Below, in pieces: positions 12,386 to 46,138 of a stretch of DNA of 64,000 nt. Positions within the stretch are counted from its first letter, which is position 1. The number at the start of each line of letters is the position of its first letter. A model generated the notes under the pieces. That model searched no databases, was not told the origin of the DNA, and saw only the letters and a list, made by a program, of their open reading frames with translations. Origin of the DNA: Candidatus Omnitrophota bacterium. GTDB taxonomy: Bacteria > Omnitrophota > Gorgyraeia > Gorgyraeales > Gorgyraeaceae. The position numbers and the translations under genes are program-made. The stretch is taken from contig JBHPFI010000001.1 of assembly GCA_042572045.1 (NCBI GenBank), positions 112,015 through 176,014 of the forward strand, in the 5' to 3' direction.

Positions 12386-12523
12386 GGTAAGGTGTTTTTG
12401 TGTTAAATGTGTGTAAGTAAAGGGGGAAATAATAGGTAAGCTATTCGTATCTTAATGCTGTCAATGCTATATTGACTTTTTACCAGGATTTACGTTATAA
12501 TAGTTCTTAAATAAAGGGGATGC

Positions 12524-12865
12524 ATGCTAAAAAGATATCAGGTGCTTTTAAATGACTGGATGGTACAACGCTTAAAAGAAGCTAGCGAGAGATACGATAT
12601 AAGTCAATCCGAAGTAATACGAATTTTACTATGCTTGCAGGCCATAAGGCTCGTATCTCAACTTTACCCCAAGCAATACAAAGACCCCGGTCTTGAAAAA
12701 GTTGTTCTAAATACCGCAACAAAAGTAAATAAAAAACAAGCTATAAGTTTAGAAGGATTTCATCGTCTTATATCGAAGATATATTACGAGGCACAAAAGG
12801 CAACAGAAGTTCGGGAAAAGCAAGAAAGCAAAATAAAAAATAACCGATCGATCATTCTCCGTTAA
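12524..12865 (+). CDS. Ribbon-helix-helix (CopG/Arc-like) protein
   Basis: N-terminus YQVLLNDWMVQRLKEASERYDISQSEVIRILL fits a beta-strand/helix/helix pattern. AGGGGA Shine-Dalgarno sequence upstream. Confidence 0.5.
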   Translation: MLKRYQVLLNDWMVQRLKEASERYDISQSEVIRILLCLQAIRLVSQLYPKQYKDPGLEKVVLNTATKVNKKQAISLEGFHRLISKIYYEAQKATEVREKQESKIKNNRSIILR

Positions 12866-12970
12866 AACCAAAACCCCCTAAAACCTACACAAATCCCAAC
12901 CTCTCCCTGCGGCGAATGTATATATATTATCTCTTAAATGTGTGTAAGTAGAGAGGAAATCAAAGGTAAG

Positions 12971-13050
12971 CTATTCGTATCTTAACGCCTCTATCGGATT
13001 AAGCTCGGACGCCTTTTTGGCAGGCCACAGGCCAAAAAACATACCTATCT
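12971..13050 (-). pseudogene. Orphan 3' fragment of a MacB/FtsX-type permease gene
   Basis: Encodes [24 protein letters not shown] with an in-frame TAG two codons upstream. 40 nt (13008-13047) are identical to macB 24918-24957. Confidence 0.8.
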
Positions 13051-13084
13051 ATTCCCTGATTAACACTACATCCAGGACATGCTT

Positions 13085-15007
13085 TTATAACTGCAGATAG
13101 TCTTCAAGCGGCACGGTCTTCTGCGTTGGAGCATTCTTTTCTTTGTCCGTGTCAATAAACTGCATGCACCATATTTCAAAAGTCAACAGACAAAAGATAC
13201 GATACCCATGATGCTTCAGCTCGATTATTTCACGGGGTTTGATTTTCTGGCGAGGGAATTCATTGAAAATATGCTCAAGTGATCTATTATTGAAAAGACC
13301 TCGTCTCTTTAGACGACTAAGAAGTCTCTCCAGCACAATCGGCCGTTTTGTCAGGAATAAATGAAAAGGCACATCACAGCTTTGTTGGGCTGAATATACG
13401 TATTGTTCCGGCAGATAACGGAGCATCGCCATTTTATGGAACCTGCGTCTATGTCCGGTATTGGAAAGTTTCTGAAAGGTAGTCCCGTCATTAAGCCACT
13501 CCTTGGGCAGTGAGTTTATAAAGGTGATCAGCTTATTATTCAAATACGGCGAGTAATAGTTCATCCCGAATCCCTCTATCGGTTTTTGCGTCGGAGGAAG
13601 CATATACTGATACACTCCGTACAGCATTTTCGTTTCAATAAGGGCATCGAAAAAATTATCCTTGGTAAATGGCAAGTCTATCATACATTTGTGAAGCGAG
13701 ATCTCTTTAAAAGTCTCGGCATCAAGGATCTTTCTCACGGTCTCTATATTATAATGGCGGTACGAGCAAAGCCTGCCAAAAAAATCATCGTATATATTTT
13801 TTTCAGCAAAAAGAGAAAACACATGGTCACTTTCCCAGAAACGCTCCCAGTCATTTACCGAAAGTATTATTTTGTTCAATAGCCTGGCACCCTTACGTAA
13901 TATATACGGAAGACGCCTGAAATACCTGTGCCACTCGGCCACAGGATAATATTCTCCCCATAATGTATCTCCTGCGTCACCGGAGATCATGCTATCCACG
14001 TGTTTACGTGCCTCGAGGATGCACATAAATATAGGAAGCGCTCCCCCAGAAACAGGCTCCTCGACTATATTTATAAAATAAGGCACACAGTCTATAGCAT
14101 CCGGACCTATGACCACAGGATGATGGACCCCTCCGAACTTTTCGGTAATATAGCGTGCCTTCGGCGTCTCGTCAAAAGCGAAGTTCTCATAGGAAGCTGT
14201 AAAGGCATGAACAGGCTTACCAAAAAGCTTTGACGTCTGGATAAATGTAAAGCTAGTGTCGTGGCCGCCGCTTAGAAAACAACCAAGTTCTCCAGGCTTT
14301 ACACAGTTAAGAAAACTTCCGATACTTTTGCTGTAAACACTCTCGTATTCGTCAAGTTTAGCGTTAAGATCCGTGAACGGCCGCCTGTCAAAGATATATT
14401 CAGTTTTCCAGTGATCTGAAACAGTGTATGTTTTATCGTGAACATGGATAAATTGAGTAGGCAGAAGTTTTTTAACCCCCTCTAATTGCGTTTTTTCAGT
14501 ATATGAGAACCCCGTTCGCAAGAATGAAGGAAGCGCCTGTTTATCAAAAGGGGGTGTGTAAGGCAGCAGGTCGAGCAGCAGCTTAAGTGAGCTTGCGAAA
14601 AATAAAGCATTATCATTAGCACAATAATACAGTTGAGTGGCCTGGTGACGGCTGTTAAAAATGAACACTTCGCCTGATGTCCTGTCGTGTATCACGATTA
14701 TAAAAAAACCGTCGAGAAGGGAACAGAACCCCTTCCCTTCTTTAACAAATAGCTGTGCAACTAATTCTTCGAGATTATTTCGACTTGACTCAAAATAGGC
14801 ACCATCTGCCTTTATATCTAATATATCGCCTAATATTATCACTGAATGATTATCGGTAATTCTTGCAGGTCGCGACGAACGAACGGCAACACAAGATTGG
14901 CAATATTCGGCAGTAAAAGGAATCTGCTGGATCGGCTTAGATTCTTTGCCGTCAAGTAAGACCCGTCCAGCGATCGTATATTTATTTTTTAATTCCGGAA
15001 GATTCAC
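13085..15007 (-). CDS. Asparagine synthetase-family adenylating enzyme lacking the N-terminal catalytic Cys
   Basis: GTG start. N-terminus MNLPELKNKY has no Cys2. PP-loop variant CFLSGGHDTSFTF. 640 aa. Confidence 0.7.
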   Translation of the reverse strand: MNLPELKNKYTIAGRVLLDGKESKPIQQIPFTAEYCQSCVAVRSSRPARITDNHSVIILGDILDIKADGAYFESSRNNLEELVAQLFVKEGKGFCSLLDGFFIIVIHDRTSGEVFIFNSRHQATQLYYCANDNALFFASSLKLLLDLLPYTPPFDKQALPSFLRTGFSYTEKTQLEGVKKLLPTQFIHVHDKTYTVSDHWKTEYIFDRRPFTDLNAKLDEYESVYSKSIGSFLNCVKPGELGCFLSGGHDTSFTFIQTSKLFGKPVHAFTASYENFAFDETPKARYITEKFGGVHHPVVIGPDAIDCVPYFINIVEEPVSGGALPIFMCILEARKHVDSMISGDAGDTLWGEYYPVAEWHRYFRRLPYILRKGARLLNKIILSVNDWERFWESDHVFSLFAEKNIYDDFFGRLCSYRHYNIETVRKILDAETFKEISLHKCMIDLPFTKDNFFDALIETKMLYGVYQYMLPPTQKPIEGFGMNYYSPYLNNKLITFINSLPKEWLNDGTTFQKLSNTGHRRRFHKMAMLRYLPEQYVYSAQQSCDVPFHLFLTKRPIVLERLLSRLKRRGLFNNRSLEHIFNEFPRQKIKPREIIELKHHGYRIFCLLTFEIWCMQFIDTDKEKNAPTQKTVPLEDYLQL

Positions 15008-44848: not shown

Positions 44849-45379
44849 TTACCCTCCCTGCGGGAAAGACTCCTCCTCATACATGTACCAGTTGGCTGAA
44901 TCTATTATGTAGGTGTGCAGTTTCATGATTCCGTCGTAATGCGCCTTTTCTTCCTCGAGCAAAAAGTCCAAAAGCTTCACCAGTTTTTTGTCTTTGGCAT
45001 CTTTGCGCATTGCTTCGTAATATTTATAACCGGAATTTTCGAATTCCATGGCAAACTCGCACGCCTTTCTATCAGAGTCGCTTTTCTTTACCTTGCCTTT
45101 CAGCTCAGTAATGCTCATTGCAAAAATAGAAAGGTCCTTTTTTCTCCCGGCCATGAGTCCATCCAGATTTAGTTCTGGAAAATCGTCGCTCTTGACCAGC
45201 GAATCGTAAAAATCTTTTAGGCTTTCTATATGAAGGAATTCGTTTTTACCGAGAAATTCAAACATCTTTTTCGTGGCGTCGTTCTCAACTTTCCGGACAA
45301 TGTCCTTATAAAAGTCAAAACCCTTTTCTTCCATCTCCAGTGCCTTTTTAAGAGCGTCTTTTAATGAGATGTTGTCCAT
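44849..45379 (-). CDS. Ferritin-like / rubrerythrin-family diiron protein
   Basis: Two ExxH-type helices (ALEMEEKGFDFY... and EFENSGYKYY...EEEKAHYD). Confidence 0.6.
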   Translation of the reverse strand: MDNISLKDALKKALEMEEKGFDFYKDIVRKVENDATKKMFEFLGKNEFLHIESLKDFYDSLVKSDDFPELNLDGLMAGRKKDLSIFAMSITELKGKVKKSDSDRKACEFAMEFENSGYKYYEAMRKDAKDKKLVKLLDFLLEEEKAHYDGIMKLHTYIIDSANWYMYEEESFPQGG

Positions 45380-45427
45380 AAGAAGCCTCCACTTTTTTCA
45401 TAGACAGTCAAATGTTTTTAAACCACT

Positions 45428-45946
45428 TTATAGCGTTACAACCTTCTTTAATGCGGCCAGGGCTTTTTCGTAATCAGGGGGCGAAGAAATCTCAGGCACC
45501 AGTTCAATATAGTGGATCTTATCTTCTTTGTCGATAATAAAAATTGCCCTTGTCAGTAGTCGAAGCTCTTTAATTAAGACCCCATATTTTTCCCCGAAAT
45601 CCGCGTTTCTGTGGTCTGACAATGTCTTTACCTTTTTTATGTCAAACTCCTGACAAAACCTCTTCTGCGCGAACGGAAGGTCCATGGAGATAAATATTAT
45701 CGCTATGTCTTTGCTTAAAGAAGATGCCTCGTCATTGAAACGTTTTATCTCTGTGTCGCAGACAGGCGTGTCCAGCGATGGCACCGAGGCGATCAGCTTG
45801 ATCTTGTTTTTGAATTTACCGAGAGTTTCTTCTTCGAGCGCGCTGTTCAAGGCCCTGAAGTCAGGCGCCTTTTCGCCCACCTTTAACTCATTTCCTGTCA
45901 ATGTAACAGGACTTCCTTTTAGTGTTACCTTATTTTTTTTCTCCAT
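45428..45946 (-). CDS. tpx: Thiol peroxidase
   Basis: GEKAPDF...SVPSLDTPVCDTE. ATG at 45946 behind GGTGGAGAGG. Confidence 0.85.
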   Translation of the reverse strand: MEKKNKVTLKGSPVTLTGNELKVGEKAPDFRALNSALEEETLGKFKNKIKLIASVPSLDTPVCDTEIKRFNDEASSLSKDIAIIFISMDLPFAQKRFCQEFDIKKVKTLSDHRNADFGEKYGVLIKELRLLTRAIFIIDKEDKIHYIELVPEISSPPDYEKALAALKKVVTL

Positions 45947-46040
45947 TTTTATCCTCTCCACCTAAGTTTAGTCACTATTCCATCGAATCCCTATCTTTAC
46001 CAGCCTTGGCCTCTGCCACGCCATTGTGGCTAGTGTATAT

Positions 46041-46069
46041 ATGATACTACTTTGAGCTCATTGAGTCAG
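46041..46069 (-). promoter_or_regulatory. Promoter module copy: CTGACT-17 nt-TATCAT
   Basis: Same spacer CAATGAGCTCAAAGTAG. Lies ~95 nt upstream of the tpx ATG. Confidence 0.5.
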
Positions 46070-46138
46070 TTGGAGAAAGCTTATTTACAGTTCAAGCTTC
46101 CCTGTTTCTTATCGATCATCAGATGCCTTTATTTGTTC

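What the first reader, a model, noticed from the sequence alone, without database searches (positions are those of the whole stretch)
12403..46138. Promoter-module copies carry footprints of the 3' ends of unrelated genes from elsewhere in the window
Seen in sequence, directly upstream (minus sense) of promoter copies:
- 46111-46138 repeats the stop region of the rlmD-like gene (38211-38238, ttatcgatcatcagRtgcctttRttt).
- 46069-46110 repeats the last codons and stop of the 75-aa gene (47361-47403; 38 of 42 nt, ETGKFEL* context).
- 12440-12458 and 12971-13050 repeat the macB terminus (ALRYE*), plus a shared ~35-nt post-stop spacer (12403-12439 versus 12934-12970).

At its location of origin, the rlmD-like stop really is followed 10 nt later by a promoter copy.

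Inference: the module has been copied repeatedly together with a few tens of nt of whatever gene end lay upstream. This leaves a nested record of earlier junctions. Copy-paste recombination or template switching fits this better than a self-contained transposon.
Basis: partly seen in the sequence, partly recalled or inferred. Interest (0 to 1): 0.6.

Follow-up and report, generated by a model that had tools for sequence, protein, structure and literature searches.

The report
Gene-end scars beside conserved promoters
The short gene fragments just upstream of repeated promoters in this Omnitrophota genome are real, but they are best read as scars left where blocks of genes were duplicated, inserted or deleted, not as baggage carried by a travelling promoter.

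Summary
All the repeats exist at the stated coordinates and are far beyond chance. The interpretation needs correcting in three ways.

1. The "rlmD stop region" is not rlmD sequence. It is the ribosome-binding region plus the first 5-8 codons (MIDNKHKD) of a VF530-family gene. That gene is intact in related Omnitrophota genomes, and in one of them it lies directly after rlmL. The window's rlmD simply reads into this ghost.

2. Each repeat pair brackets a gene block:
- 41 nt around rlmL (1.25 kb)
- about 60 nt around a small RHH-like gene (0.47 kb)
- 86 nt around an 11.8-kb biosynthetic block placed after macB. One relative has macB followed directly by the promoter.

3. Relatives at 80-93% protein identity carry the same genes on the same strand in a different order in nearly every contig. 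They also hold gene ghosts that have no promoter module beside them.

The promoter core is conserved at orthologous genes across species, so its similarity reflects selection, not recent copying.

Best reading: these are scars of duplication or insertion followed by microhomology-mediated deletion. Such scars survive only in the narrow gap between a stop codon and the next promoter. Template switching remains possible. A promoter acting as the vehicle is not supported, except possibly at 12.4 kb. This is a known kind of feature and moderately interesting.

The parts
47362..47402 (-). Native 3' end of the 75-aa gene: last 8 codons, the stop, and 16 nt of its own 3' flank. This is the source copy.
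   Evidence: Orthologues end the same way (L011, L044, L046, L047, L050). The flank continuing as ATTGGTGGTAAAAAYTTGGGGTCAGC is conserved in L044 and L046, which have different downstream genes.
46070..46110 (-). Ghost copy of the 75-aa gene 3' end plus 16 nt of flank. It is joined directly to the -35 box of the tpx promoter.
   Evidence: 39/41 identical to 47362-47402. It carries two private substitutions in the former coding part.
46103..46134 (-). Ghost of the 5' end of a VF530-family gene: upstream ATAAAGGCATCTG, then ATG at 46119-46117 and 5 codons (MIDKK). It overlaps the 75-aa ghost by 8 nt, where the two sources match 7/8 (AAKAAACA).
   Evidence: 90% identical over 30 nt to the start of the intact VF530 genes in L050 and L006. 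L004 has rlmL followed directly by VF530. Pfam PF09905, E=2e-33, for the L050 protein.
38198..38236 (-). Second VF530 5' ghost: upstream region, ATG at 38221-38219 and 8 codons (MIDNKHKD). The rlmD reading frame runs into it and stops at TGA 38223-38221, which overlaps the ghost ATG.
   Evidence: 23/23 identical to the L050/L006 VF530 start. tblastn finds MIDNKHKD(T)L here. The rlmD C-terminal tails differ in the relatives (FKSPSD*, FKNHR*).
46016..46069 (-). Promoter module before tpx: -35 CTGACT at 46069-46064, conserved 17-nt spacer, -10 TATCAT at 46046-46041, and a leader hairpin GCCACAATGGCGTGGC.
38136..38208 (-). Promoter module after rlmD and before a PhoU-like gene: upstream part AACACAAAGACACCTTACC, -35 TTGACT at 38189-38184, -10 TACCAT.
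46111..47361 (-). Block bracketed by the two 75-aa-end copies: the 75-aa gene's terminator-like flank, the rlmL promoter, rlmL (46139..47290), and the VF530 ghost.
12971..13047 (-). Ghost of a macB 3' end (25 codons plus TAG), lying after an unrelated Asn-synthase-like gene.
   Evidence: Its peptide ends as the L056 MacB does ([13 protein letters not shown]).
24881..24957 (-). 3' end of the resident, intact macB. It is the partner of the 12.97k ghost.
13048..24871 (-). 11.8-kb block bracketed by the two macB-end copies: a PMT_2 glycosyltransferase, three radical SAM proteins (two with B12-binding domains), two Asn-synthase-like genes, and a GT2. No recombinase.
   Evidence: Relative L056 has macB followed 24 nt later by a promoter module, with no such block.
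12934..12970 (-). Spacer copy after the 77-nt macB ghost.
   Evidence: The same spacer-plus-promoter unit occurs at 42663-42707 and in L056 9665-9749 behind a terminator hairpin.
12900..12933 (-). Decayed -10/leader remnant of a promoter module (GAGATAATATATATACATTCGCCGCAGGG) that has lost its -35 part. It is followed by 36 nt (12872-12907) homologous to 9602-9637.
   Evidence: The comparison with the L056 macB-proximal module is by eye.
12459..12933 (.). Block bracketed by the two [macB end + spacer] copies. It holds a 113-aa ribbon-helix-helix-like gene on the + strand (12524..12865) with its own TTGACT-17-TATAAT promoter (12471-12500).
   Evidence: There is no Pfam hit; the RHH reading comes from the sequence pattern only.
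12403..12458 (-). Second copy of [last 19 nt of macB ghost + TAG + 37-nt spacer]. It continues into a complete promoter.
   Evidence: 86% identical to 12927-12988. It shares TTAAGA and TAG with the 12.97k ghost, not with the resident macB.
12357..12402 (-). Promoter module before the AmmeMemoRadiSam radical SAM gene: -35 TTGACG at 12385-12380, -10 TATTAT at 12362-12357.
   Evidence: The same module precedes the 87%-identical orthologue in L082/L083.

Best explanation
The fragments are rearrangement scars, or gene ghosts. In this Omnitrophota lineage, small same-strand gene blocks are repeatedly duplicated or inserted and then trimmed by deletions between short direct repeats. When a block lands behind gene G, or a copy of G decays, a few tens of nucleotides of G's end survive. 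They sit between the block and the next gene's promoter. That narrow gap is the only place in a tightly packed genome where a junction does no harm. This explains why the ghosts sit just upstream of -35 boxes. The promoter modules are conserved resident intergenic units, not the thing that moved.

Shown directly:
- the repeats and their bracketing of blocks;
- the VF530 identity of the so-called rlmD piece;
- permuted gene order and module-free ghosts in relatives;
- cross-species conservation of the module.

Inferred:
- The order of events. I favour duplication followed by microhomology-mediated deletion, at about 60:40 over re-integration of an excised circle or donor fragment by recombination in the shared gene end.
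- That the 46.1k VF530 ghost is in situ.
For: 1. Each repeat pair flanks one block: 41 nt around rlmL, about 60 nt around the RHH gene, and 86 nt around an 11.8-kb cluster.

2. L056 shows the empty arrangement, macB then 24 nt then module.

3. The 32-nt piece is the VF530 gene start. It is intact in L050, L006 and L004, and in L004 it lies directly after rlmL. No intact VF530 gene exists in the window.

4. The genes ABC-F, RmlD-like 290-aa, 78-aa, 75-aa, rlmL, VF530, an exonuclease-like gene and rlmD stay on one strand, but their order differs in nearly every related contig. The oxidative-stress genes around tpx behave the same way.

5. Relatives hold ghosts with no module beside them. In L051 a whole 290-aa gene copy lacks residues 32-231; its 62-nt end is repeated 4050 nt away, bracketing rlmL, the 75-aa gene, the exonuclease-like gene, a 100-aa gene and rlmD. 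L008 holds a 78-aa gene reduced to 9 codons fused to its own end at a CTT microhomology.

6. Junctions show microhomology: AAKAAACA between VF530 and the 75-aa end, and AAAGAC between VF530 and the module (for the intact VF530 sequence).

7. The module is conserved at orthologous genes in other species: L082 (radical SAM), L094 (121-aa family gene) and L056.

8. The block ends have no inverted repeats, and the blocks hold no recombinase.
Against: - No sister strain with an exact empty site for the rlmL or RHH blocks was found, so the events cannot be polarised.
- Two VF530 ghosts exist (38.2k and 46.1k), but rlmD followed by VF530 is not seen in any relative. One ghost may therefore be a templated copy of the other.
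- The clustered mismatches in the macB repeat (0/41, then 11/37, p=1e-4) fit recombination between diverged sequences, or gene conversion, better than simple duplication and decay.
- The 12.4k copy joins a macB-end fragment to a complete promoter. That looks like co-duplication of promoter and gene end.
- All relatives are metagenome-assembled genomes or metagenome contigs. Some apparent paralogy, such as two rlmL copies in KR13_S3.mb.80, may be strain mixture.
Confidence: 0.6

Rival explanations
1. First reader's model. The promoter module is the copied unit. Each copy event takes along a few tens of nucleotides of whatever gene end lay upstream, building a nested record.
For: - Module and leader segments of 100-200 nt at 82-90% identity stand before unrelated genes: 38091-38208 versus 42567-42681, 12316-12428 versus 42595-42705, and 45947-46046 versus 54487-54586. 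This is the pattern described as putative mobile promoters (PMC3488235).
- The 12.4k copy carries 19 nt of macB end plus spacer fused to a full promoter.
- The module is present before the radical SAM orthologue in L082 but absent in the closer L081.
Against: - The predicted intermediate [rlmD end][75-aa end][module] does not exist. The rlmD site reads [VF530 ghost][module].
- The 'rlmD' piece is a VF530 start, found next to rlmL in L004.
- In every case the supposed source lies exactly one gene block away from the copy. Random pasting would make that a coincidence repeated three times.
- Ghosts occur without modules in relatives.
- The spacer between -35 and -10 is conserved across species at orthologous genes.
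Confidence: 0.2
2. Campbell-type integration. A circular or incoming DNA segment that already carried a copy of the target gene's 3' end recombined with the resident gene end. This restored the gene and left a direct repeat at the far side of the insert, as integrative islands do at tRNA or gene 3' ends.
For: - The macB repeat has a perfect core of about 40 nt followed by 30% divergence, like a crossover region between resident and foreign sequence.
- L056 lacks the block.
- The Asn-synthase-like gene of the block has no close relative; the best hit is 60% identical.
- The PMT_2 gene has 34-37% GC against 44-48% for macB.
Against: - No integrase or other recombinase lies in or beside any block.
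- Three different target sequences are used, so the process is not site-specific.
- The 290-aa ghost in L051 is a whole gene copy with an internal deletion, which points to duplication and not to an att-like end copy.
- The other two repeat pairs show no core-and-flank mismatch pattern.
Confidence: 0.15
3. The matches arise by chance, from low complexity, or from convergently evolved terminators.
For: The pieces are short and AT-rich. The 75-aa gene end can form a hairpin of about 10 bp.
Against: - No shuffle of the window reproduced the matches, and BLAST E-values range from 6e-4 down to 4e-19.
- None of the pieces folds better than its own shuffles; z-scores run from -0.5 to +1.2.
- The pieces match coding sequence of intact genes in other genomes.
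Confidence: 0.01

Closest known systems
Putative mobile promoters / promoter propagation (Matus-Garcia, Nijveen, van Passel 2012, PMC3488235)
   Same: Highly similar promoter stretches of 50 nt or more stand before non-homologous genes in one genome. That paper proposed duplication by homologous or non-homologous recombination as one route.
   Different: Here the attached gene-end fragments bracket gene blocks. The promoter core is also conserved at orthologous genes in other species, so most of the similarity is old and constrained. That survey removed families sharing homology in the upstream gene, so it would have discarded cases like these.
Tandem-duplication/random-loss gene-order change with pseudogene remnants, as described for animal mitochondrial genomes (known to me from the mitochondrial literature; not read here)
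   Same: Gene order is permuted on one strand. Decaying duplicate genes and short remnants are left at the junctions.
   Different: This is a bacterial chromosome. The blocks carry their own promoters. At least one junction pattern (macB) looks more like recombination between diverged copies. No extant full tandem intermediate was seen in the window.
Genomic islands integrated at the 3' end of a gene, with attL/attR direct repeats
   Same: A block sits directly behind an intact gene, and a copy of that gene's 3' end lies at the far boundary. The site is empty in a relative.
   Different: There is no integrase. Three unrelated targets are used. The repeats are imperfect (84-95%). Two of the 'islands' are single small genes.
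Homology-facilitated illegitimate recombination during DNA uptake (abstract of PMC3240628, seen in the search result; the paper itself was not read; the usual outcome stated below is from my own knowledge)
   Same: One end of the incoming DNA is anchored by homology in a shared gene, and the other end is joined at a few bases of microhomology.
   Different: To my knowledge the usual outcome is deletion of recipient DNA, not duplication. Nothing is known about competence in this organism.
Promoter-bearing miniature transposable elements such as the Neisseria Correia element or ERIC (named in PMC3488235)
   Same: They are dispersed intergenic repeats that supply promoter elements.
   Different: The modules and the flanked blocks have no terminal inverted repeats, no short fixed-length target duplications, and no transposase partner.

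Membership tests
Putative mobile promoter families (PMC3488235) | At least 50 nt of upstream sequence at 80% identity or more, shared within one genome. | tested here: met
   38091-38208 versus 42567-42681 is 90% over 118 nt. 12316-12428 versus 42595-42705 is 82% over 114 nt. 45947-46046 versus 54487-54586 is 85% over 100 nt.
Putative mobile promoter families (PMC3488235) | Downstream genes are not homologous. | tested here: met
   The downstream genes are PhoU-like, a 70-aa/121-aa membrane protein, radical SAM, tpx and a 247-aa protein.
Putative mobile promoter families (PMC3488235) | No homology in the neighbouring upstream gene (a filter used in that survey). | tested here: not met
   The copies at 12.4k/12.9k and 46.1k/38.2k do share upstream gene-derived sequence. 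This shared sequence is the subject of the finding.
Transposon, IS or MITE | Terminal inverted repeats at the ends of the moved unit. | tested here: not met
   An inverted-repeat scan of both small blocks found only weak internal pairs and none at the ends.
Transposon, IS or MITE | A transposase, or short target-site duplications of fixed length. | tested here: not met
   None of the genes scanned against Pfam in or beside the three blocks hit a transposase family. The repeats are 41, about 60 and 86 nt long and imperfect.
Integrase-mediated island at a gene 3' end | A tyrosine or serine recombinase gene in or next to the island. | tested here: not met
   All seven genes of the 11.8-kb block are biosynthetic: PMT_2, radical SAM (three genes, two with B12-binding domains), Asn synthase (two genes) and GT2.
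Integrase-mediated island at a gene 3' end | Direct repeats containing an identical core at both boundaries, with the target gene restored. | tested here: inconclusive
   The macB pair has a perfect core of about 40 nt followed by 11/37 mismatches, and macB is intact. The other two pairs show no such pattern.
Integron gene cassettes | attC-type imperfect palindromes at cassette ends, and an IntI integrase. | tested here: not met
   The boundaries have no palindromic sites, and no integrase family was hit by the 30 proteins scanned, which include all genes in and beside the three blocks; the rest of the window was not scanned.
Tandem duplication followed by loss | Gene order permuted with strand kept. 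| tested here: met
   All members of the rlmL/75-aa/78-aa/290-aa/rlmD/VF530 set lie on one strand, in a different order in L002, L004, L005/L011, L008, L050-L052 and the window.
Tandem duplication followed by loss | Decaying duplicate copies or remnants at the junctions. | tested here: met
   Window ghosts. L051 holds a 290-aa gene copy lacking residues 32-231. L008 holds a 78-aa gene ghost.
Tandem duplication followed by loss | An extant intermediate with both full copies in tandem. | tested here: inconclusive
   None was seen for these loci. The window does hold tandem paralogues of the 121-aa gene (8867..9238 and 9638..10000). KR13_S3.mb.80 has two rlmL copies (L008, L011), but this could be strain mixture.

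The most novel reading that the evidence does not exclude
Omnitrophota of this clade may have a regular, recombinase-independent (or unknown-recombinase) way of moving promoter-equipped gene blocks. In this reading, blocks leave as circles formed at microhomologies and re-enter directly behind a gene by recombining with a carried copy of that gene's end. The dispersed, same-orientation promoter modules would serve as landing zones. The result would be cassette-like shuffling of ordinary housekeeping genes.
Probability: 0.1. Interest if true: 0.7.

Novelty: new member of a known kind. Interest (0 to 1): 0.4.

Why it matters
If the reading is right, the fragments form a small readable record of how gene order turns over in an uncultured, compact-genome phylum. 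Whole blocks with their promoters are duplicated or inserted and then pared back, and only junctions in the stop-to-promoter gap survive.

It also carries two cautions. Identical promoters before unrelated genes need not mean mobile promoters; a duplicated operon that loses its first gene gives the same picture. And short C-terminal tails of genes, here the last six codons of rlmD, can be supplied by the ghost of a neighbouring gene.

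Tried and rejected
- **rlmL and rlmD as paralogues sharing a 3' end.** Rejected. They belong to different families (THUMP/UPF0020 versus TrmA-like), and rlmL is complete.
- **The 640-aa gene at 13085..15007 as a frameshifted macB.** Rejected. 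It is Asn-synthase-like.
- **Known RNA families in the modules or leaders.** Rfam gave nothing at gathering thresholds over the whole window. There are no tRNA or tmRNA targets.
- **Exact-protein look-up of rlmL.** Not on record.
- **Empty-site search for the radical SAM locus.** Orthologues at 74-91% identity sit in unrelated contexts. The two closest contigs that carry the module begin inside it, so their upstream side is unseen.
- **Empty-site search through the Asn-synthase-like gene.** No relative is closer than 60%.
- **tpx relatives.** None has the 75-aa gene or a module upstream, so neither ancestral order for the rlmL locus could be confirmed.
- **Terminal inverted repeats at the block ends.** None.
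- **Terminator-like folding of the repeats.** No better than shuffles.
- **Literature on Omnitrophota intergenic repeats or synteny.** Nothing relevant was found.

Full report
**Source and layout.** The window is a chromosomal stretch of a Candidatus Omnitrophota genome. Relatives of its rlmL-like gene at 67-92% protein identity are almost all labelled Omnitrophota; one metagenome bin (L006) is labelled uncultured Planctomycetia. Two window proteins match, at 100% identity, NCBI Omnitrophota proteins from a 176-kb contig. GC content is 39.6%. Nearly all genes in the region of interest lie on the minus strand, so everything below is read in minus sense.

**Check of the observation.** Self-BLASTN recovered every repeat.
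- 46070-46110 versus 47362-47402: 39/41.
- 38205-38236 versus 46103-46134: 29/32.
- 12396-12458 versus 12927-12988: 86% over 63 nt.
- 12962-13047 versus 24872-24957: 84% over 86 nt.

Mismatch-tolerant pattern searches found only the expected two copies of the first two pieces, with no hit in 100 shuffles. Pfam confirms the gene assignments: RlmD/TrmA-like, MacB, a thiol peroxidase (tpx), a radical SAM enzyme and an Asn-synthase-like protein. The fragment at 12971-13047 translates to [24 protein letters not shown]. It sits behind the unrelated Asn-synthase-like gene.

**The promoter module.** The core is ACCTTACC-TTGACT-CAATGAGCYCAAAGTAG-TATCAT. Four copies match it closely, a fifth (10k) is more diverged and two further sites keep only the -10 and leader part. 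Two kinds of conserved leader follow it. The same core, including the 17 nt between the two hexamers, occurs in other species.
- Before a helicase-like gene (my reading of its N-terminal sequence; not scanned) in single-cell genome L005.
- Three times in L056.
- Before the 87%-identical radical SAM orthologue in L082/L083.
- Before a 121-aa family gene in L094, as at 10.0k in the window.

Conservation of non-hexamer positions at orthologous genes across species indicates purifying selection. Similarity between copies is therefore not evidence of recent copying. The 37-nt 'post-stop spacer' belongs to a larger conserved unit. In L056 that unit reads terminator hairpin, spacer, promoter (9645-9749). 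The unit recurs at 42663-42707 in the window.

**The 'rlmD footprint' is a VF530 gene start.** I scanned the related loci for the 32-nt piece. It was found in L050 and L006 as GCATAAAGGCGTCCG-ATGATCGATAATAAACACAAAGAC. That sequence is the ribosome-binding region and the first codons of an intact 73-aa gene. The gene belongs to Pfam VF530, PF09905, E=2e-33. In L004 the homologous gene starts inside the last codons of rlmL.

The window has no intact VF530 gene, only the two truncated starts.
- At 38.2k the rlmD frame leaves the conserved ...IALFK and reads the VF530 upstream region as AGNKGT. It stops at a TGA that overlaps the ghost ATG. The two rlmD orthologues seen (L008, L051) end differently directly after IALFK (FKSPSD*, FKNHR*).
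- At 46.1k the ghost follows rlmL. That matches the rlmL-then-VF530 order of L004, so this ghost is most simply a remnant left in place.

**Each repeat pair brackets a block.**
- The native 75-aa gene end (47362-47402) keeps its own conserved flank, which is shared with L044 and L046. It is followed by the rlmL promoter, rlmL, the VF530 ghost, and then the ghost 75-aa end. That ghost is fused to the -35 box of the tpx promoter.
- The two [macB end + spacer] copies at 12.9k and 12.4k bracket 475 nt. This stretch holds a 113-aa RHH-like gene on the opposite strand with its own promoter, plus a decayed module remnant.
- The 86-nt macB-end pair brackets 11.8 kb of biosynthetic genes. In L056 the orthologous TolC-MacA-MacB operon is followed 24 nt later by a promoter module, with none of these genes nearby.

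In the macB pair the first 41 nt are identical and the next 37 carry 11 mismatches (Fisher p=1e-4). The 12.4k fragment shares derived bases (TTAAGA, TAG) with the 12.9k ghost and not with the resident macB.

**Gene order in relatives.**

| Source | Order on one strand |
|---|---|
| L050-L052, L006 | VF530, 78-aa, 290-aa, rlmL, 75-aa, exonuclease-like gene, 100-aa, rlmD |
| L005, L011 | rlmL, 290-aa |
| L002 | ABC-F, rlmL, 78-aa |
| L004 | rlmL, VF530, 78-aa |
| L008 | exonuclease-like gene, rlmD, polysaccharide-deacetylase-like gene (my reading of the sequence; not scanned), rlmL |
| L054, L058 | 290-aa, 75-aa |
| L065, L070 | 75-aa, 78-aa |
| Window | ABC-F, 290-aa, 78-aa, 75-aa, rlmL, tpx |

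The oxidative-stress genes around tpx are shuffled in the same way.

Relatives also hold ghosts that have nothing to do with the module.
- In L051 a 290-aa gene copy behind rlmD lacks residues 32-231. Its 62-nt end is repeated 4050 nt upstream, and the pair brackets five genes.
- In L008 a 78-aa gene is reduced to nine codons joined to its own stop region at a CTT microhomology.

**Mechanism.** The junctions in the window show microhomology.
- VF530 (GATAATAAACA) and the 75-aa end (AGAAGAAACA) share 7 of 8 bases where they meet.
- VF530 codons 7-8 (AAAGAC) coincide with the module's upstream AAGAC.

There are no terminal inverted repeats and no recombinase genes. The repeats do not fold better than shuffles.

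The simplest account has three steps.
1. A block is duplicated, or enters behind a gene.
2. Redundant copies are removed by deletions between short direct repeats.
3. Only junctions lying between a stop codon and the next promoter are tolerated.

For the rlmL locus, two events suffice. The first is a tandem duplication joined at the AAKAAACA microhomology. The second is a deletion running from 16 nt past the ghost stop to the tpx -35 box. A single deletion with a 41-nt templated patch would give the same product.

For macB, the clustered mismatches favour recombination between diverged copies, or gene conversion. For the 12.4k copy, co-duplication of the gene end with a promoter cannot be excluded.

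I put the scar model at 0.6, promoter hitchhiking at 0.2, Campbell-type integration at 0.15, and chance at about 0.01.

**Comparison with what is known.** The module copies meet the operational definition of putative mobile promoters (PMC3488235). They fail that survey's filter against shared upstream gene sequence. The overall behaviour resembles tandem-duplication/random-loss gene-order change, which the literature search returned only for mitochondrial genomes. It also partly resembles islands integrated at gene 3' ends, but without an integrase. Nothing places it among transposons, miniature transposable elements or integrons.

**Verdict.** It is wrong on two points, namely what moved and where the 'rlmD' piece came from. 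This is a new instance of a known kind of feature. Its interest lies in how heavily this uncultured lineage reshuffles gene order.

Noticed in passing
window 5546-5704 (+) and 42779-42937 (-): Two copies of a 52-aa small membrane protein gene (MKIVLGVVIGGTIGFLIGHFGKCASGACPLTSNP...), 94% identical over 176 nt and lying on opposite strands. Each is oriented like its neighbouring genes. Both were missed by the 60-aa ORF cut-off. The 77-aa and 70-aa ORFs listed at 42.6-43.0k are probably spurious.
   Followed up: partly
window 45947-46046 and 54487-54586 (-): tpx and an unrelated 247-aa gene share a 100-nt leader, ribosome-binding site included, at 85% identity. In relatives whose tpx is 92-93% identical, tpx and the 247-aa homologue overlap in one operon (L086-L092). 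The shared leader may therefore come from an operon copy that lost its first gene. The window's 247-aa protein is only 63% identical to theirs.
   Followed up: partly
window 38006-38208 and 42514-42705 (-): About 200 nt of promoter plus long leader, at 81-90% identity, stand before a PhoU-like gene and before a 70-aa/121-aa gene pair. The leader holds a conserved GCCACAAYGGGGTGGC hairpin, which is also seen as CCACAAAGGCGTGG in the short leader type. Rfam finds no match.
   Followed up: no
window 8867..9238, 9638..10000, 41897..42262 (-); also L046 5962-6321 and L094 from 3204: There are three paralogues of a 121-aa membrane protein. Two lie in tandem around an unrelated gene. Each has a short-leader promoter (the 9.2k copy keeps only the -10 and leader; for 41897 the nearest module lies upstream of the intervening 70-aa ORF), and each is followed by an 85-nt repeat that is G-rich in minus sense (8853-8937, 9624-9708, 41883-41967, with a fourth copy at 35813-35897). 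The pairing of promoter and gene is conserved in L094.
   Followed up: partly
window 47291-47320 (-); L001, L003, L005, L008 upstream of rlmL: rlmL keeps a conserved TTTTGAYAGGnATRAT...CATGGAC upstream box in all relatives. The TATAAT-like hexamer ends 6 nt before the ATG, which suggests a leaderless transcript.
   Followed up: no
L051 3893-4110; L008 2388-2425; L095 279-350: Relatives carry gene ghosts. L051 has a 290-aa RmlD-like gene with residues 32-231 deleted. L008 has a 78-aa gene reduced to 9 codons plus its stop region. L095 may have a 23-codon start (MMEKKILLEALNKAIEMEEKGYN*) between a promoter and tpx; this last one was not verified.
   Followed up: partly
window 12459-12475 (+): A palindrome, GTCAAT-GCTAT-ATTGAC, overlaps the -35 box of the RHH-like gene's promoter. 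It could be an autoregulatory operator.
   Followed up: no
L003 11191-18296; L029 1140-3216; L053 702-5116; L078 9-4554: Other Omnitrophota contigs carry their own families of dispersed 30-130-nt direct repeats at 80-100% identity. They were not examined further.
   Followed up: no
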